This document shows positions 4,992 to 9,819 of a stretch of 64,000 nt of DNA, in pieces (positions within the stretch are counted from its first letter, which is position 1; each line of letters starts with the position of its first letter). Origin of the DNA: Escherichia coli (GTDB taxonomy: Bacteria; Pseudomonadota; Gammaproteobacteria; Enterobacterales; Enterobacteriaceae); NCBI RefSeq assembly GCF_013122565.1, contig NZ_CP053258.1. The stretch is one strand, 5' to 3'. A program made the position numbers and the translations under genes. The notes below the pieces were generated by a model. The model was not told the DNA's origin, did not search any database, and saw nothing but the letters and a program-made list of their open reading frames with translations.

Positions 4992-5894
4992 ATGGCTTAT
5001 CAATCGCAAGATATCATTCGTCGTTCCGCGACTAACGGTCTGACCCCCGCGCCTCAGGCGCGGGACTTCCAGGAAGAAGTGGCGAAACTCATCGACGTCA
5101 CCACCTGTATCGGCTGTAAAGCCTGTCAGGTGGCGTGTTCAGAGTGGAACGACATTCGCGATACCGTCGGCAATAACATTGGGGTGTACGACAACCCCAA
5201 TGATTTAAGTGCCAAATCGTGGACGGTGATGCGATTCTCGGAAGTGGAGCAGAACGACAAACTGGAATGGCTGATCCGCAAAGACGGCTGTATGCACTGT
5301 TCCGATCCCGGCTGCCTGAAAGCGTGCCCGGCGGAAGGTGCAATTATTCAGTATGCCAACGGTATCGTCGACTTCCAGTCCGAGCAGTGCATTGGCTGCG
5401 GTTATTGCATTGCGGGCTGTCCGTTCGACATTCCGCGCCTCAACCCGGAAGACAACCGCGTCTACAAATGTACGCTGTGCGTTGACCGCGTGGTGGTTGG
5501 GCAAGAACCGGCCTGCGTGAAGACCTGCCCAACGGGCGCGATTCACTTCGGTACGAAAGAGTCGATAAAAACGCTGGCGAGCGAGCGCGTGGCGGAGCTG
5601 AAAACCCGTGGTTACGACAATGCGGGCCTGTACGATCCGGCAGGTGTCGGTGGTACACACGTTATGTACGTGCTGCACCATGCTGACAAGCCAAATCTCT
5701 ATCATGGCTTGCCGGAGAACCCGGAAATCAGCGAAACCGTGAAATTCTGGAAAGGCATCTGGAAACCGCTCGCAGCTGTTGGCTTTGCGGCTACCTTCGC
5801 GGCCAGTATCTTCCACTACGTGGGTGTCGGTCCGAACCGTGCGGATGAGGAAGAGAATAATCTGCACGAAGAGAAAGACGAGGAGCGCAAATGA
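4992..5894 (+). CDS. fdoH: Formate dehydrogenase-O iron-sulfur (beta) subunit
   Basis: 300 aa with multiple CxxCxxCxxxCP ferredoxin motifs and C-terminal TM segment; follows fdoG. Confidence 0.9.
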
Positions 5895-6526
5895 AACGAC
5901 GTGACACCATCGTGCGCTACACCGCGCCGGAACGTATCAACCACTGGATCACCGCCTTCTGCTTCATCCTGGCGGCGGTGAGCGGGCTGGGCTTTTTGTT
6001 CCCGTCCTTCAACTGGTTGATGCAAATCATGGGCACACCGCAGCTGGCGCGAATTCTGCACCCGTTTGTCGGCGTGGTTATGTTTGCCTCGTTCATCATC
6101 ATGTTTTTCCGTTACTGGCATCACAACCTAATCAATCGGGATGATATCTTTTGGGCGAAGAATATTCGTAAGATCGTCGTCAACGAGGAAGTAGGTGACA
6201 CCGGGCGTTATAACTTCGGTCAGAAATGCGTTTTCTGGGCGGCGATTATTTTCCTGGTTCTGCTGCTGGTGAGCGGCGTGATTATCTGGCGTCCTTATTT
6301 TGCGCCTGCTTTCTCAATCCCGGTGATCCGATTCGCGTTAATGCTGCATTCATTTGCCGCAGTGGCGTTAATTGTGGTTATCATGGTGCATATCTACGCC
6401 GCCCTTTGGGTGAAAGGCACGATTACCGCCATGGTGGAAGGATGGGTTACCAGCGCCTGGGCGAAGAAACATCACCCGCGCTGGTACCGTGAGGTCCGCA
6501 AGACAACGGAAAAGAAAGCTGAATGA
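5891..6526 (+). CDS. fdoI: Formate dehydrogenase-O cytochrome b556 (gamma) subunit
   Basis: 211-aa polytopic membrane protein, overlapping fdoH stop (ATGA). Confidence 0.9.
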
Positions 6527-7452
6527 GTATTCGCATAATCCCGCAAGATGAGCTGGGTTCGGGCGAGAAACGTACGGCGGATATGATTCCGCCGTTATTG
6601 TTCCCTCGGCTCAAGAATTTATACAACCGCCGCGCCGAGCGTCTGCGCGAGCTGGCAGAAAATAATCCGCTGGGTGATTACCTGCGCTTTGCTGCGCTTA
6701 TCGCCCACGCCCAGGAAGTGGTGCTGTACGACCATCCGCTGGAGATGGATCTGACTGCACGCATTAAAGAAGCCAGCGCACAAGGCAAGCCCCCGCTGGA
6801 TATTCACGTTCTGCCGCGTGATAAGCACTGGCAAAAGCTGCTGATGGCGCTAATTGCTGAGCTGAAACCTGAAATGAGCGGCCCGGCGCTGGCAGTGATT
6901 GAGAATCTGGAGAAGGCATCGACTCAGGAGCTGGAAGATATGGCCAGCGCACTGTTTGCCTCTGATTTCTCATCCGTCAGTAGCGATAAAGCGCCGTTTA
7001 TCTGGGCTGCACTGTCGCTCTACTGGGCGCAGATGGCCAATCTGATCCCCGGCAAAGCCCGCGCTGAATACGGCGAACAACGTCAATATTGCCCGGTTTG
7101 TGGTTCTATGCCGGTGTCCAGCATGGTGCAAATTGGCACCACTCAGGGTCTGCGTTACCTGCACTGCAACCTGTGTGAAACCGAATGGCACGTAGTGCGC
7201 GTAAAATGCAGCAACTGCGAGCAGAGCGGCAAACTGCATTACTGGTCGCTGGATGACGAACAGGCCGCGATTAAAGCCGAAAGCTGCGATGACTGCGGCA
7301 CTTACCTGAAAATTCTCTATCAGGAAAAAGAACCGAAAGTTGAAGCCGTGGCAGATGACCTCGCCTCTCTGGTACTGGACGCACGAATGGAGCAAGAAGG
7401 CTATGCCCGCAGTTCCATCAACCCGTTCCTGTTTCCGGGTGAAGGGGAGTAA
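6523..7452 (+). CDS. fdhE: Formate dehydrogenase accessory protein FdhE
   Basis: 309 aa with CxxC pairs ([27 protein letters not shown]); overlaps fdoI stop. Confidence 0.9.
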
Positions 7453-7629
7453 TCTCTGACGTTTTCCGGGTGGCGCTGGTCGCCCGGATTACAGCTCATA
7501 GGGTGTGACGACACCATCTCTCGTATTCCGCGTTACCACCTCAAGCTATGCCGCCTGTGCCTGTTTGCCTCGTTCTTCCCTCCAACACATCGATAAGGTT
7601 ATTGGTATGTTACTGATGACAAGCGTAAG

Positions 7630-7745
7630 ATTGCCTGATGCGCTGCGCTTATCAGGCCTACCAATAAACTGCAATACATTGAATTTTCATGACTTTGTAG
7701 GCCGGATAAGGCGTTCACGCCGCATCCGGCATGAACAACGCACAC
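7630..7745. repeat. REP/BIME-type palindromic elements
   Basis: gcctgatgcgctgcgcttatcaggcctac and gtaggccggataaggcgttcacgccgcatccggca motifs typical of E. coli REP units. Confidence 0.75.
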
Positions 7746-7780
7746 GTTGTCAGCAATCTGATTGACATCATTTTTTCCCA

Positions 7781-8002
7781 TTACCCTTCCTCGCGCAGCT
7801 TACGCTGGTATTCGACACCATCTTCCTCATACACTTGCCAGATGCCAGGAACACTGGATCTTGCTGTTTGCAATTGATTTTCCAGGTATTGTTCTACCGC
7901 TTCTCGTAATAGGTCTGCACGCGGAAGATTACGCTGCACCTCAAGATCATCAAGTTGCTTAATCACCTCATTCGATAAATCGAGTAAAATTCTGCTCATA
8001 TC
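7781..8002 (-). CDS. yiiF: Ribbon-helix-helix (CopG/Arc-like) small DNA-binding protein
   Basis: ORF 7781-8038; likely start [12 protein letters not shown] at 8002; shares the REAVEQYLE motif with its neighbour. Confidence 0.7.
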
Positions 8003-8117
8003 CCAACCTGCCAGAGGGTTCGTAAATATTTCACCCATATCATTTTTGAATCTATGGAGAGAAAAGTACCCTTGCCGAATCTTAAAAGAAAGCTCATTTA
8101 CGCATCATTTTTTATTT

Positions 8118-8136
8118 TTGCGAGGCGTTTTCCAGA
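8118..8136 (-). promoter_or_regulatory. Conserved upstream motif ttgcgaggcgttttccaga, copy 1 (upstream of yiiF)
   Basis: Identical 19-mer recurs at 8557-8575 and, with one change, at 9788-9807, each about 90-120 bp upstream of a minus-strand start codon. Confidence 0.5.
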
Positions 8137-8241
8137 TATGATGTAACAGTTGCAGTTATTATAAGTTCAAGTAAAACAGTCTTGTATTAATACCAGAATA
8201 AGGGCATCTGGTTTTTATATTCAAGAATAATATATTTTTTG

Positions 8242-8460
8242 TCATTCCTTATGCTCCTTACACTGATCATCAACAACTACTGTCTCACCCCTTTGCCTGC
8301 CTCCCTTTGCTTTACGCACCGGAAATTGCTGCCGCTCCAGATATTGCTCAACCGCTTCGCGTAAAATTGCAGATCGTGAAACCTTACGCCAGCCCCGAAG
8401 CTTGTTCAGCCGTTTAATTGCCTCTTCTGATAAATGAAGAAAAACCGTATTCATCGTCAT
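8242..8460 (-). CDS. yiiE: Ribbon-helix-helix (CopG/Arc-like) small DNA-binding protein, paralog of yiiF
   Basis: ORF 8242-8469; [11 protein letters not shown] motif; tandem paralog of yiiF including its upstream region. Confidence 0.7.
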   Translation of the reverse strand: MTMNTVFLHLSEEAIKRLNKLRGWRKVSRSAILREAVEQYLERQQFPVRKAKGGRQRGETVVVDDQCKEHKE

Positions 8461-8556
8461 TGCCACCACCTAACATATATTATTCATTAATGTATGTACG
8501 AAAACTACGCCGGAAAATTAATTAACGAAAGCGGATTTTTGCATGTTGTTTTGTTT

Positions 8557-8575
8557 TTGCGAGGCGTTTTCCAGA
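8557..8575 (-). promoter_or_regulatory. Conserved upstream motif ttgcgaggcgttttccaga, copy 2 (upstream of yiiE)
   Basis: Same 19-mer as copy 1; also followed by the related gttgcagtt box seen after copy 1. Confidence 0.5.
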
Positions 8576-8985
8576 AATAATAAGAGCGTTGCAGTTGTTT
8601 CAATTGTTACTCAAAAATGGTTTAGTTATCGCCCAAAATGAATTATAGGTGCTATGAATATATTATATTCAGGGATATTTATTTTTTCATTGGATCTTTA
8701 TTTGCATAATCTGAATGGTGTAGCCGAAAAATGTCAGCATCCTAACAGCACCCGGATTTACGGTGAAATTAATCATCCATCACAGACCGGTCAGTACTGC
8801 TACCAACCGGTCTTAACTTGCTCATCGTTATAATTTTGTTGGTAACAGTTCGGGAAACAAGGAATTCCTTCCGGAACACCCCTGACATCATCCGATAGCA
8901 TTGACGTCAATCATCGGCGCGACGATGAGTTTTTTAATCGCATCATAGGGTGGCAACGGTCAGCACGATTACGGGTCATAGCAAA

Positions 8986-9090
8986 ACTCCTGAGCAGGTG
9001 GCACTACGCCGCTTTCACAGGAGTTCTGAATGCTGGTGCTTTCTGTATGGCATAACCATGCCTCTAACGGTTAAGTGCTTGCAGCACATG
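8986..9090. repeat. About 105-bp direct repeat, copy A (overlaps 3' end of antitoxin gene)
   Basis: aactcctgagcag..gccgctttcacaggagttctgaatgctggtgctttctgtatggc.. recurs at 10802-10906 with roughly 85 percent identity by eye. Confidence 0.8.
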
Positions 9091-9354
9091 TTGCGGATCA
9101 TTGGCAATCGCTCGCAGCAAAGCCTTTGCAGGCCCGGTCGGTGAACGTCGCCCCTGCTCCCAGTTACGCAACGTGTCTACACTTACAGAAATAAGATCGG
9201 CAAATTTAGATTGTGACAACCCTGAAGCGCGGCGTATTTCTTTGATTTTCATAGCATCAACTTCAAAAGTCCGCGAAGGCTGTCGCGTTCCTTCAATAAT
9301 TTCATTCATCTGGGCCATGCTGTGAGTCAACCGCTCAAAAAGTGCCTTATCCAT
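9064..9354 (-). CDS. HTH (XRE-family) antitoxin, HigA-like
   Basis: 96 aa; helix-turn-helix segment IRRASGLSQSKFADLISVSVDTLRNWEQG; start abuts the stop of the upstream toxin ORF. Confidence 0.7.
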   Translation of the reverse strand: MDKALFERLTHSMAQMNEIIEGTRQPSRTFEVDAMKIKEIRRASGLSQSKFADLISVSVDTLRNWEQGRRSPTGPAKALLRAIANDPQHVLQALNR

Positions 9355-9666
9355 TTACCACCTCGTATTTAACAACCGGAGCATTGCTTTTTCCTGGGGA
9401 GACAGATCATCTTTAATACCCTTACGATAAATAAGCAGTAATCTGATCTCATAATGTTTAACCTGATGAAAGTAAATAACCCTGACACCAGCACGTTTCC
9501 CCTTTCCTCCTGACACCCATCGAATCTTTCTTAACCCACCAGTTTCAGGTATTACCTCACCATAGTCAGGATTCAAGGCCAGGAAAAACTGAAAACGACT
9601 GAATTCATCGTCGGTCAGCAGTTTTTGAACATCTTCAGTAAAAATTTCCGTTTCGATGAAGAGCAT
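9355..9666 (-). CDS. RelE/HigB-superfamily (Gp49-like) toxin
   Basis: 103-aa basic protein placed upstream of an XRE antitoxin (toxin-first hig-type layout); conserved-looking GVRVIYF...LLLIYRKG core. Confidence 0.65.
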   Translation of the reverse strand: MLFIETEIFTEDVQKLLTDDEFSRFQFFLALNPDYGEVIPETGGLRKIRWVSGGKGKRAGVRVIYFHQVKHYEIRLLLIYRKGIKDDLSPQEKAMLRLLNTRW

Positions 9667-9787
9667 AATTATACGCCATTGGCTTAGAGTAACAATCCTT
9701 TTTGTACGTCATTGACGTACCCTTGAAACCACTAGCTTACTGATAGTGCTCCAGCAAAACCACGTCTCTGCCGGGTTTGTCTTTACA

Positions 9788-9807
9788 TTTGCGAGGCGCT
9801 TTCCAGA
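9788..9807 (-). promoter_or_regulatory. Conserved upstream motif tttgcgaggcgctttccaga, copy 3 (upstream of toxin-antitoxin operon)
   Basis: One-mismatch copy of the yiiE/yiiF upstream 19-mer, about 120 bp upstream of the toxin start. Confidence 0.5.
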
Positions 9808-9819
9808 TTTTTCACGCCC

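What the first reader, a model, noticed from the sequence alone, without database searches (positions are those of the whole stretch)
8470..9063. Roughly 600-bp apparently non-coding stretch between yiiE and the toxin-antitoxin module
No convincing ORF covers this interval (the only track ORF there, 8950-9144, overlaps the repeat and antitoxin gene and looks spurious), yet it sits at the junction between the conserved RHH pair and the strain-specific islet. It is AT-rich in its 5' half and contains short palindromes (accggtcagtactgctaccaaccggtc). It could hold a degraded gene, an sRNA or the recombination site used for islet acquisition.
Basis: seen in the sequence. Interest (0 to 1): 0.3.

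Follow-up and report, generated by a model that had tools for sequence, protein, structure and literature searches.

The report
Decayed small-gene remnants upstream of yiiE
The 600-bp "empty" stretch is not a new gene or RNA: it holds the control region of the small regulator gene yiiE and the wreck of two small genes cut down by a ~400-bp deletion, and its one odd feature is a 20-base box that also precedes unrelated toxin-antitoxin operons in other enteric bacteria.

Summary
Window 8470-9063 has no ORF longer than chance gives (59 aa; shuffles 57±17). Its 5' half is AT-rich (33% against 47.5% GC) and it carries the quoted palindrome.

It is a composite:
- 8470-8606: the yiiE leader and promoter, paralogous to the yiiF upstream region, with a conserved 20-nt box at 8556-8575.
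- 8607-8783: an AT-rich spacer with no conserved ORF or RNA structure.
- 8784-8813: the palindrome, a strong minus-strand hairpin just 3' of where a 92-aa gene (ORF-B) ends in other strains.
- 8822-8979: the C-terminal third of ORF-B joined to the first 17 codons of a 70-aa gene (ORF-A) across a ~398-bp deletion scar at 8924/8930.
- 8985-9083: the ORF-A leader, which is also copy 1 of a 99-nt direct repeat flanking the toxin-antitoxin and hydrolase genes.

ORF-A and ORF-B are intact in 1270 of 5426 complete E. coli genomes and under purifying selection (dN/dS 0.11-0.24).

K-12 aligns only to 8857. It then jumps to 12722, inside a 617-aa gene, so the "islet-free" state is a deletion.

Verdict: ordinary gene decay plus a regulatory region. 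The box is unexplained and worth following up.

The parts
8470..8555 (-). 5' leader of yiiE, between the box and the start codon at 8460 (GTG at 8469)
   Evidence: ORF map. This is part of the 100-nt repeat 8500-8599, which is 72% identical to the yiiF upstream region 8061-8160. It is present in all E. coli alleles examined.
8556..8575 (-). Box 2: TTTGCGAGGCGTTTTCCAGA on the + strand (sense TCTGGAAAACGCCTCGCAAA), about 95 nt upstream of the yiiE start codon
   Evidence: There are three copies in the window (8117, 8556, 9788) and none in 100 shuffles. The same box occurs in many Enterobacterales upstream of unrelated toxin-antitoxin operons.
8576..8606 (-). Promoter-proximal segment of yiiE with a -10-like TATTAT (8583-8578) abutting the box. 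The promoter is predicted, not shown.
   Evidence: Paralogy with the yiiF upstream region. A -10-like hexamer abuts the box in many of the enteric copies (my reading of the sequences listed; not counted). The sigma-70 scan did not list a canonical promoter here.
8607..8783 (.). AT-rich spacer (26-35% GC) with no conserved ORF, promoter or RNA structure
   Evidence: Composition. The 59-aa + strand ORF is broken by a 19-bp deletion in K-12 and by indels in B2 alleles. The sigma-70-like site 8690-8662 loses its -35 in K-12. The RNAalifold covariation term is positive on both strands. Identity to other alleles is 79-98%.
8784..8813 (-). The palindrome: a 13-bp-stem hairpin in minus-strand RNA, about 10 nt 3' of the position of the ORF-B stop codon. 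Inferred to be the 3' stem-loop or terminator remnant of the ORF-A/ORF-B transcript.
   Evidence: Minus strand -20.8 kcal/mol, z -3.96; plus strand -14.6 kcal/mol. The stem core (11 pairs, GACCGGUUGGU/ACUGACCGGUC) is invariant in 7 alleles that otherwise differ by up to about 20%; the outermost and innermost pairs vary. A Klebsiella-like locus has a canonical terminator at the same position after ORF-B. There is no U tract.
8822..8924 (-). Remnant of the C-terminal ~34 codons of ORF-B (92 aa, hypothetical protein WP_001296612.1 in B2 strains). The stop codon is lost, and an in-frame stop lies near the junction.
   Evidence: Alignment with strain Seattle 1946 and six-frame translation. ORF-B is intact at this locus in L004, L006, L007, L138-L143. 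dN/dS is 0.12-0.24.
8924..8930 (.). Deletion scar: about 398 bp (L004 3563-3960) are missing, between imperfect 11-nt direct repeats GCGACGGCGAA and ACGACAGCGGA
   Evidence: BLAST end points and flank sequences and the alignment. The same scar is present in M8, strain 104 and O55:H7.
8929..8979 (-). First 17 codons of ORF-A (70 aa, Cys-rich, phrog_4499), with ATG at 8979-8977. The stub reads on to a stop at 8913-8911 (22 aa).
   Evidence: tblastn of ORF-A hits window 8979-8842. Frame translation gives MTRNRADRCHPMMRLKN against MTRNRAERRHHMVRLKK. phrog_4499 E 1.4e-13. dN/dS is 0.11-0.13.
8985..9083 (-). Copy 1 of a 99-nt direct repeat. It is the conserved ORF-A leader, with the SD AGGAG (8991-8987) inside the 3' arm of a hairpin, and its right end overlaps the last 6 codons and stop of nadS.
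   Evidence: Repeat pair at 87% identity. Fold. The same leader precedes ORF-A in L139 and L141.
10802..10900 (-). Copy 2 of the 99-nt repeat, between the hydrolase stop and the 3' end of the 617-aa gene. O55:H7/O157:H7 carry a single copy-2-like repeat and lack the 1.8 kb in between.
8857..8858 (.). Left end of the K-12-type deletion (8858-12722, about 3.9 kb). The junction has no repeat or microhomology beyond 1 nt.
   Evidence: K-12-like DNA aligns to 8431-8857 and then to 12722-13288. Junction sequences. PGAP annotates the 39-codon stub as a pseudogene 'missing C-terminus'.
8117..8136 (-). Box 1, upstream of yiiF. In yiiF-less strains, homology to the window ends exactly at its 3' (sense) edge.
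   Evidence: Query_from 417, which equals window 8116, in many genomes.
9788..9807 (-). Box 3, 121 nt upstream of the toxin start codon

Best explanation
The interval is a composite of one working and several dead parts, all belonging to minus-strand transcription units.

The first ~135 bp next to yiiE (8470-8606) are the leader and promoter region of yiiE, an orphan VapB-like ribbon-helix-helix gene. This region arose with the gene by tandem duplication of the yiiF unit. It keeps a 20-nt box under strong constraint.

The remainder is what is left of a two-gene module, ORF-A and ORF-B, that lies between the toxin-antitoxin pair and yiiE in other strains. The remnants, in order along the minus strand, are:
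- the ORF-A leader with its Shine-Dalgarno sequence,
- 17 codons of ORF-A,
- a ~398-bp microhomology-flanked deletion,
- about 34 codons of ORF-B,
- the 3' hairpin of the module,
- an AT-rich spacer.

The remnants are predicted to make no protein longer than 22-36 aa and to have no function of their own.

The ORF-A leader is duplicated 1.8 kb away. This gives a 99-nt direct repeat around the toxin-antitoxin and hydrolase genes, across which these genes have been lost in O157/O55-type strains. K-12-type strains lost everything from 8858 to inside the 617-aa gene by an unrelated illegitimate deletion.

Shown: the anatomy, the homologies, the selection on the intact genes and the population counts. 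Inferred: that the hairpin is a 3' end element, that the promoter sits next to the box, and the direction of the rearrangements.
For: - No ORF exceeds chance.
- The yiiE and yiiF upstream regions are paralogous: 100 nt at 72% identity, 93% over the 27 nt around the box.
- B2 and other strains carry an extra ~390 bp between window 8930 and 8931 that encodes ORF-B (annotated by PGAP) and ORF-A (annotated in some records).
- tblastn finds the ORF-A stub in the window.
- The deletion end points lie between 11-nt imperfect direct repeats.
- ORF-A matches phrog_4499 at E 1.4e-13.
- ORF-A and ORF-B are syntenic in a second E. coli lineage and in a Klebsiella-like species at 59-74% identity. Their dN/dS is 0.11-0.24 with saturated dS.
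- The hairpin folds at -20.8 kcal/mol (z -3.96) on the minus strand. Its stem core is invariant, and a canonical terminator sits at the same place in the Klebsiella-like locus.
- The 99-nt repeat is present in two copies, and O55:H7 has a single copy.
- K-12 joins 8857 to 12722 and keeps a 39-codon stub of the 617-aa gene.
- Population counts among 5426 genomes: 1270 have the intact form, about 1650 the scarred form, and 2056 have no match to 8858-9063.
- In Citrobacter youngae and the Klebsiella-like species the yiiF orthologue is followed by a PIN toxin gene.
Against: - There are no expression data. The yiiE promoter is not canonical: the best -35/-10 pair has a 14-nt spacer and the scan did not list it.
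- The hairpin lacks a U tract, so it does not qualify as an intrinsic terminator.
- The 177-bp AT-rich spacer is kept in all E. coli, including K-12, and has no assigned role. The Klebsiella-like locus has only 84 nt there.
- The direction of change (deletion or insertion) is inferred from parsimony. For the 99-nt repeat, integration and excision cannot be told apart.
- The function of ORF-A and ORF-B is unknown: no Pfam, NCBIfam or PADLOC hit.
Confidence: 0.82

Rival explanations
1. The interval encodes a small regulatory RNA (for example 8607-8860), with the palindrome as its terminator or structural core.
For: The hairpin is strong and its stem core is invariant. The segment is kept in all E. 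coli, even in K-12, where everything beyond 8857 is deleted. A sigma-70-like site lies at 8690-8662 on the minus strand.
Against: There is no Rfam match at E<=1. The covariation term is positive on both strands, and only the invariant hairpin is kept. The hairpin has no U tract. The sigma-70-like site loses its -35 in K-12 through a 19-bp deletion, and the scan found no more sites than shuffles give (4 against 4.7). Alleles differ by 42-63-nt indels inside the segment.
Confidence: 0.06
2. The interval contains the attachment or recombination site through which the toxin-antitoxin/hydrolase/617-aa 'islet' was acquired by an islet-free ancestor.
For: The toxin-antitoxin and hydrolase segment is bounded by 99-nt direct repeats, as expected after Campbell-type integration, and O55:H7 has one copy and no insert. 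The 20-nt box marks the proximal edge of variable content at three loci.
Against: The K-12 junction (8857|12722) has no repeat, and K-12 retains the 5' stub of the 617-aa gene, so K-12 is a deletion derivative. The hydrolase, toxin, nadS, ORF-A and ORF-B order is syntenic in a Klebsiella-like species, and hydrolase, toxin and nadS in Citrobacter amalonaticus, so these genes are old residents of the fdhE-fabY locus. There is no tRNA gene. The 99-nt repeat is the leader of a resident gene, not a recognisable att core.
Confidence: 0.08
3. The interval still encodes a small protein: the 59-aa + strand ORF 8654-8833, the 64-aa ORF 8950-9144, or the 22-36-aa minus-strand stubs.
For: The ORFs exist. 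The ORF-A stub keeps a good Shine-Dalgarno sequence 7 nt from its ATG.
Against: The ORF lengths are what chance gives. The 59-aa ORF is frameshifted in K-12 and B2. The 64-aa ORF is antisense to nadS and to the ORF-A leader. The stub retains 12 of 17 ORF-A residues and then runs out of frame into a stop.
Confidence: 0.04
4. The conserved box is a sigma-54 (-24/-12) promoter driving yiiE, yiiF and the toxin operon, and the region upstream of it holds enhancer sites.
For: The box has GG-N10-GC spacing (TGGAAAACGCCTCGCA). glnAp2 also has TCGC at -12 (OS37).
Against: With a weight matrix built from 50 intergenic ChIP sites, the three window boxes score 3.7-4.4 bits. That is below every true site (minimum 4.7, median 14.9), and 244-323 window 17-mers score as high. 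Of all box variants scored, only the prlF copy (6.9 bits) exceeds any true site (3 of 50). No sigma-54 ChIP-seq peak at yiiE, yiiF, prlF or ygfZ in K-12, and none at yiiE/yiiF by genomic SELEX. The most conserved part of the box, CGYCTCGCAAA, covers the sigma-54 spacer.
Confidence: 0.03

Closest known systems
The variable yiiD(fabY)-fdhE locus of E. coli with a relE/yiaG-type toxin-antitoxin pair (described for AIEC NRG857c and CFT073; PMC7232551)
   Same: It is the same locus and the same toxin-antitoxin pair. That paper also notes that K-12 and HS lack the toxin-antitoxin genes and their bordering genes while yiiD and fdhE are conserved.
   Different: That description stops at presence or absence of genes. 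Here the non-coding stretch is resolved into the yiiE leader, the ORF-A and ORF-B remnants, a deletion scar and a 99-nt repeat, and K-12 is shown to be a deletion derivative.
Decay of chromosomal toxin-antitoxin islets, such as ccdO157 at folA-apaH (Mine et al. 2009, cited in PMC7232551; details from my own knowledge)
   Same: Small accessory genes in an intergenic hot spot are present, degraded or absent in different E. coli lineages.
   Different: The decayed genes here are not the toxin-antitoxin pair itself, which is intact in the window. They are a neighbouring two-gene module of unknown function.
K-12 yiiE-fabY intergenic region with the PGAP pseudogene 'hypothetical protein, missing C-terminus'
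   Same: Window 8470-8857 is the orthologue of the yiiE-proximal 390 bp of that region, at about 88-93% identity with a 19-bp indel.
   Different: K-12 continues directly into the stub of the 617-aa gene. The window continues into the ORF-B and ORF-A remnants and the toxin-antitoxin genes.
Putative mobile promoters: homologous promoter segments upstream of non-homologous genes (PMC3488235)
   Same: The 20-nt box with an abutting -10-like hexamer recurs upstream of unrelated operons (RelE-like/NadS, RHH/PIN, PrlF/YhaV, Gp49/HTH).
   Different: The shared segment is only 20 nt. It is restricted to Enterobacterales and sits at the edge of variable DNA. Its promoter activity has not been shown.
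Integron cassette arrays (attI/attC, SOS-controlled integrase; from established knowledge)
   Same: There is a conserved site followed by variable small cassettes, tandem units each preceded by the site, and a LexA box in the adjacent divergent promoter region.
   Different: The box is not an imperfect palindrome and has no GTTRRRY core. No integrase is adjacent, because the divergent gene is an alpha/beta hydrolase. The cassettes carry their own leaders. This is an analogy only.

Membership tests
Pseudogene / deletion remnant of a protein-coding gene (ORF-A, ORF-B) | Recognisable similarity of the remnant to an intact gene | tested here: met
   tblastn of ORF-A hits window 8979-8842 (E 7e-4). 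The DNA alignment is collinear on both sides of the gap. The frame translation shows PEGIxxFPxCY of ORF-B.
Pseudogene / deletion remnant of a protein-coding gene (ORF-A, ORF-B) | Intact orthologue at the same position in related genomes | tested here: met
   L004, L006, L007, L139 and L141, all between nadS (or the 178-aa gene) and yiiE/RHH. 1270 of 5426 genomes carry the intact form.
Pseudogene / deletion remnant of a protein-coding gene (ORF-A, ORF-B) | The intact gene is a real coding gene (purifying selection or family membership) | tested here: met
   dN/dS is 0.11-0.13 for ORF-A and 0.12-0.24 for ORF-B, with dS 1.2-2.0. ORF-A matches phrog_4499 at E 1.4e-13. ORF-B has no family.
Pseudogene / deletion remnant of a protein-coding gene (ORF-A, ORF-B) | A disabling lesion in the copy at hand | tested here: met
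   A ~398-bp deletion removes codons 18-70 of ORF-A, the spacer between the two genes, and codons 1 to about 58 of ORF-B.
Intrinsic (Rho-independent) terminator (hairpin 8784-8813) | Stable GC-rich stem-loop | tested here: met
   -20.8 kcal/mol, 13-bp stem, z -3.96 on the minus strand.
Intrinsic (Rho-independent) terminator (hairpin 8784-8813) | U tract directly after the stem | tested here: not met
   The stem is followed by GUGAUGGAUG on the minus strand and UAACUUGCUC on the plus strand. The terminator scan did not list it.
Known small RNA family / structured RNA | Match to a curated covariance model | tested here: not met
   Rfam 15 searched at E<=1 over 7000-11000. The only hits are REP-associated, at 7654-7751.
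Known small RNA family / structured RNA | Compensatory base changes that support a structure | tested here: not met
   The RNAalifold covariation term is +0.72 (minus strand) and +0.83 (plus strand). Two pairs on each strand change on both sides, and none of them is in the hairpin stem core.
Sigma-54 promoter (the 20-nt box) | GG and GC dinucleotides 10 nt apart | tested here: met
   TGG-AAAACGCCTC-GCA, read from the sequence.
Sigma-54 promoter (the 20-nt box) | Weight-matrix score in the range of experimentally bound sites | tested here: not met
   The window boxes score 3.7-4.4 bits, against a minimum of 4.7 and a median of 14.9 for 50 ChIP sites. 244-323 equal or better 17-mers occur in the 64-kb window.
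Sigma-54 promoter (the 20-nt box) | Occupancy by sigma-54 in vivo or in vitro | tested here: not met
   No ChIP-seq peak in MG1655 at 4,077,0xx-4,078,1xx or at prlF or ygfZ, and no genomic SELEX peak at yiiE/yiiF. This is a literature check only.
Insertion with target duplication or att sites (islet boundaries) | Direct repeats at the two ends of the variable segment | tested here: inconclusive
   Met for the toxin-antitoxin and hydrolase segment (99 nt, 87% identity). Not met for the K-12-type junction 8857|12722. The repeat is the leader of a resident gene, so ordinary homologous recombination is enough to explain it.
Integron-type cassette site (the box) | Imperfect inverted repeats with a conserved GTTRRRY core | tested here: not met
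   The box T[CT]TGGANNNCG[CT]CTCGCAAA is asymmetric and has no such core.
Integron-type cassette site (the box) | Adjacent tyrosine-recombinase (integrase) gene | not tested
   The genes next to the box are an alpha/beta hydrolase (Pfam Abhydrolase_3) or a 150-aa protein with no family. The rest of the genome was not searched for a cognate recombinase.
Autoregulated RHH-antitoxin-type promoter (yiiE leader) | RHH gene directly downstream; related RHH genes paired with a toxin elsewhere | tested here: met
   RHH_1 E 1.1e-11 for YiiE. The YiiF orthologues in C. youngae and the Klebsiella-like species are followed by a PIN gene.
Autoregulated RHH-antitoxin-type promoter (yiiE leader) | Operator repeats bound by the RHH protein; mapped transcription start | not testable with these tools
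   No binding or start-site data are available here. The paper with dRNA-seq start sites is not held.

The most novel reading that the evidence does not exclude
The 20-nt box (sense T[CT]TGGANNNCG[CT]CTCGCAAA; box 2 lies inside the interval) may be a previously undescribed cis element of Enterobacterales. It would define the 5' boundary of small toxin-antitoxin-type cassettes. It could be the crossover point for cassette swapping and tandem arraying (box-cassette-box-cassette, as in toxin/nadS - yiiE - yiiF here). It could instead be a shared start-of-transcript signal through which unrelated toxin-antitoxin operons are controlled together, in part alongside LexA. The evidence does not exclude either reading. 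Homology between genomes with different cassettes ends 0-9 nt after the box at three independent loci. The box precedes five non-homologous toxin-antitoxin families: it lies about 100-145 nt upstream of the first gene in four of them, and about 65 nt upstream in inverted orientation beside relBE. LexA-like boxes sit at three fixed offsets in 17 of 61 box copies scanned.
Probability: 0.2. Interest if true: 0.65.

Novelty: new member of a known kind. Interest (0 to 1): 0.3.

Why it matters
For the finding itself the value is corrective. A stretch that looks like unexplained non-coding DNA is shown to be a regulatory leader plus the wreck of two real but uncharacterised small genes. The textbook K-12 state of the yiiE-fabY region is shown to be a deletion derivative that still carries a gene stub.

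This has two practical uses for annotation. ORF-A is often left unannotated, and it is a conserved member of the phage-linked family phrog_4499. The PGAP pseudogene in K-12 can now be named as the 5' end of the 617-aa gene.

The larger potential lies in the box. If one short sequence marks where unrelated toxin-antitoxin modules are inserted, swapped or co-regulated in enteric chromosomes, that would bear on an old question: how chromosomal toxin-antitoxin 'islets' move and why they sit where they do.

Tried and rejected
- Sigma-54 reading of the box. Rejected by the weight-matrix score and by the absence of ChIP or SELEX peaks.
- sRNA. Rfam found nothing in the interval. RNAalifold on seven alleles, both strands, gave no covariation.
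- Coding potential of the 59-aa and 64-aa ORFs. Their lengths are what chance gives and the frames are not conserved.
- tRNA or tmRNA as an integration target. None found in 7000-13500.
- Terminator-like site at 8911-8928 followed by T6 on the + strand. It is created by the deletion junction, and its fold is not better than shuffles (z -0.8).
- Sigma-70-like site 8690-8662. Not conserved, because its -35 is deleted in K-12.
- Phage origin of the box. Only 8 matches in IMG/VR, which is at or below the chance level.
- Defence-system assignment of ORF-A, ORF-B, the toxin and the 617-aa protein. No PADLOC hit apart from generic HTH matches for NadS.
- Literature search for the box sequence. It found only unrelated papers.
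- Searches for yiiE/yiiF biology and for mapped start sites of yiiE or prlF. Nothing usable was found, and two papers are not held.
- Right-hand cassette boundary as a second specific site. It is simply the fdhE stop codon.
- The box as the edge of the relBE cassette at cybC-nrdG. There the box lies 110 nt inside the inserted segment and points away from relBE, so that case does not fit the boundary model.
Full report
**Setting.** The window is E. coli. fdoI-fdhE are 98-99% identical to E. coli genomes, and the local gene order is the following:

| Gene | Coordinates | Strand |
|---|---|---|
| fdoI, fdhE | upstream | + |
| yiiF | 7781-8038 | - |
| yiiE | 8242-8460 | - |
| the interval | 8470-9063 | |
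| nadS (HTH antitoxin) | 9064-9354 | - |
| RelE-like toxin | 9355-9666 | - |
| alpha/beta hydrolase | 9820/9895-10803 | + |
| 617-aa gene of unknown family | 10972-12825 | - |
| fabY (yiiD) | 13201-14190 | - |

The yiiD-fdhE locus is already described as variable, with this toxin-antitoxin pair present in AIEC and CFT073 and absent in K-12 (PMC7232551).

**Observation.** It is confirmed.
- The longest complete ORF in 8470-9063 is 59 aa. Shuffles of the interval give 57 ± 17 aa, and 40% reach 59.
- GC is 33% in the 5' half and 47.5% in the 3' half.
- The quoted palindrome is the inverted repeat 8784-8796/8801-8813.

**Comparison with other E. coli.** Four states of the interval exist.
- K-12-type genomes align to 8431-8857 and then jump to 12722-13288. 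The junction has no repeat. The 39 codons left of the 617-aa gene are what PGAP calls a pseudogene 'missing C-terminus'. K-12 is therefore a 3.9-kb deletion derivative, not a state before acquisition.
- O55:H7/O157:H7-type genomes align through to about 9089 and then jump to about 10880. They lack the toxin-antitoxin and hydrolase genes.
- M8 and strain 104 are collinear with the window across the whole interval.
- B2 strains such as Seattle 1946, strain 190693 and others carry about 390 extra bases between window 8930 and 8931.

Counts among 5426 complete genomes are as follows. 1270 have the long form. About 1650 have the short form (2922 genomes covering 8858-9063, minus the 1270). 2056 have no match to 8858-9063.

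**The extra DNA encodes two genes.** Both lie on the minus strand.
- ORF-B is 92 aa and PGAP annotates it as a hypothetical protein.
- ORF-A is 70 aa, basic and Cys-rich (TPCxCSCWMCGH). It is annotated only in some records.
- ORF-A matches phrog_4499 at E 1.4e-13. Neither gene has a Pfam, NCBIfam or PADLOC match.
- Diverged copies of both genes, at 59-74% identity, sit side by side at the same locus in another E. coli lineage and in a Klebsiella-like species.
- Pairwise dN/dS is 0.11-0.13 for ORF-A and 0.12-0.24 for ORF-B, with dS of 1.2-2.0. Both are genuine genes.

The window keeps the following remnants:
- the ORF-A Shine-Dalgarno sequence (AGGAG, 8991-8987) and the ATG (8979-8977),
- 17 ORF-A-derived codons, MTRNRADRCHPMMRLKN,
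- a scar at 8924/8930,
- about 34 codons of the ORF-B C-terminus (8924-8822), with the stop codon lost.

The missing ~398 bp (L004 3563-3960) lie between imperfect 11-nt direct repeats, GCGACGGCGAA and ACGACAGCGGA. This is a typical microhomology deletion.

**The palindrome.** On the minus strand it folds into a 13-bp stem at -20.8 kcal/mol (z -3.96), which is stronger than on the plus strand at -14.6 kcal/mol.
- It starts about 10 nt after the position of the ORF-B stop.
- Its stem core (11 pairs) is invariant in seven alleles that differ by up to about 20% around it.
- The Klebsiella-like locus has a canonical terminator at the same place.
- It has no U tract.

I therefore read it as the 3' stem-loop of the ORF-A/ORF-B transcript. 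This is inferred, and it is not a proven terminator.

**The 99-nt repeat.** Positions 8985-9083 recur at 10802-10900 with 87% identity.
- Copy 1 is the conserved leader of ORF-A, and the same sequence precedes ORF-A in L139 and L141. It contains a hairpin whose 3' arm holds the Shine-Dalgarno sequence.
- The two copies bracket nadS, the toxin gene and the hydrolase gene.
- O55:H7 has one copy of the copy-2 type and none of these genes. This fits loss by recombination between the copies, or the reverse, gain by integration. The direction is not settled.

**The yiiE-proximal part.** Positions 8500-8599 are 72% identical to 8061-8160 upstream of yiiF. The two RHH genes with their upstream regions are therefore a tandem duplication.
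- In Citrobacter youngae and the Klebsiella-like species, the YiiF orthologue is followed by a PIN toxin gene. YiiE and YiiF thus look like orphan VapB-type antitoxins.
- The AT-rich spacer 8607-8783 has no conserved ORF, no conserved promoter and no covariation on either strand. Its role, if it has one, is open.

**The box.** Within the duplicated segment, 20 nt stand out: TTTGCGAGGCGYTTTCCAGA on the + strand.
- It occurs three times in the window (8117, 8556, 9788) and in no shuffle. Its distance upstream of the start codon is 78 nt for yiiF, 95 nt for yiiE and 121 nt for the toxin gene.
- A scan of about 100,000 species' genomes was cut off at 120 rows, and I estimate about 140 chance matches across the whole collection. 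More than 50 of the 120 rows are intergenic copies in Enterobacterales.
- These copies lie upstream of RelE-like/NadS, RHH/PIN, PrlF/YhaV and Gp49/HTH operons, beside a RelB/RelE cassette, upstream of ygfZ, and upstream of a 150-aa protein family.
- Viral contigs give only 8 matches.
- It is not a sigma-54 promoter.

Three sets of comparisons show that shared sequence ends 0-9 nt after the box and variable content begins there:
- yiiF present or absent in E. coli;
- different cassettes next to the hydrolase gene in Escherichia, Citrobacter, Superficieibacter, Phytobacter and the Klebsiella-like species;
- a toxin-antitoxin pair present or absent between infA and clpA.

The far boundary is just the fdhE stop codon. 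One case, relBE at cybC-nrdG, does not fit. LexA-like boxes lie at three fixed offsets from 17 of 61 box copies scanned. In the window, the LexA-like box is at 9863-9878, just upstream of the hydrolase start codon.

I cannot decide between three readings of the box: a conserved start-of-transcript or operator element, a short-homology crossover point, or both. I report it as unexplained.

**Verdict.** The 'degraded gene' option is right. The sRNA option is unsupported. The 'recombination site for acquisition' option is mostly wrong in direction, although three rearrangement junctions do lie in the interval. The interval itself is ordinary: a regulatory leader plus gene decay. Its only unusual content is box 2.

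Noticed in passing
window 8117-8136, 8556-8575, 9788-9807; loci L009-L124, L140-L143: A 20-nt box (sense T[CT]TGGANNNCG[CT]CTCGCAAA) is dispersed in Enterobacterales intergenic regions. It is found mostly 100-145 nt upstream of unrelated toxin-antitoxin-type operons, and it marks the point where sequence shared between genomes gives way to variable cassettes. It is not sigma-54 and not phage-borne. I found no description of it in the literature searched.
   Followed up: partly
window 9863-9878: A LexA-box-like sequence, CTGTACATTCATACAG (CTGT-N8-ACAG, close to my recollection of the sulA operator), lies directly after a TATAAA and 4 nt before the first ATG (9883) and 16 nt before the annotated hydrolase start (9895). 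It sits at the same offset (-70/-71 from the box) in Citrobacter youngae, C. amalonaticus, Superficieibacter and Phytobacter. This suggests SOS control of the hydrolase gene and/or the divergent toxin operon.
   Followed up: partly
window 7781-8038 and 8242-8460; L068, L141: YiiF orthologues in Citrobacter youngae and a Klebsiella-like species are followed by a PIN-domain (VapC-type) toxin gene. The E. coli yiiE and yiiF genes therefore look like orphan antitoxins that have lost their toxin partners.
   Followed up: partly
L001 3637-3753 (K-12-like), equivalent to window 12722-12837: The PGAP pseudogene 'hypothetical protein, missing C-terminus' between yiiE and fabY in K-12 is the 39-codon 5' stub of the 617-aa gene that is intact in the window (10972-12825).
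   Followed up: yes
window 10972-12825: The 617-aa protein has no Pfam, NCBIfam, PHROG or PADLOC match. In some RefSeq genomes its split halves are labelled 'transposase' or 'hypothetical protein'. The gene is AT-rich (about 35-40% GC), and in other strains it is replaced by a 60-nt terminator (M8) or by other genes (DUF6708; 175/178-aa genes).
   Followed up: no
window 7700-8860 compared with 5891-7452: yiiF (89-91%), the spacer (79-98%) and yiiE (92-98%) are far more diverged between E. coli lineages than the adjacent fdoI-fdhE (98-99%). The alleles are mosaic: for example, strain 104 is 99.5% identical in 8858-9063 but lacks yiiF.
   Followed up: partly
window 7654-7751: REP-type palindromic units downstream of fdhE give sub-threshold Rfam hits (naRNA4 38 bits against 59.5; ES036 33.5 bits against 37.6). 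They explain the roughly 12 BLAST places per genome.
   Followed up: no
window 8216-8238 and 8472-8494: A 23-nt inverted repeat (83% complementary) brackets the yiiE coding sequence: the 5' leader against the 3' flank. It could be chance in AT-rich DNA or a 5'-3' pairing. It was not evaluated.
   Followed up: no
L004/L005 just after box 1 (yiiF-less strains): In yiiF-less strains the box is followed by ATACGAGAGAT and then TTTGCGGG, an inverted partial copy of the box end (CTCGCAAA-N11-TTTGCGGG). The 15 nt carrying it are absent from the yiiF-containing window.
   Followed up: no
L058/L059, L049/L050, L020, L080, L120 (Enterobacter, Lelliottia, Silvania): A family of ~150-aa proteins with no Pfam match (MATTPKFSY...EPYITAH) is present in several copies per genome. 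Where the ORF is intact it is preceded, about 145 nt or more upstream, by the box and a conserved leader (L049 and L059 show only the leader). A separate ~145-aa gene (a different-looking sequence, not compared) sits divergent from the box and a LexA box between infA and clpA.
   Followed up: no
window 8911-8928: The deletion junction fortuitously creates a terminator-like hairpin followed by T6 on the + strand. Its fold is no better than shuffles.
   Followed up: yes
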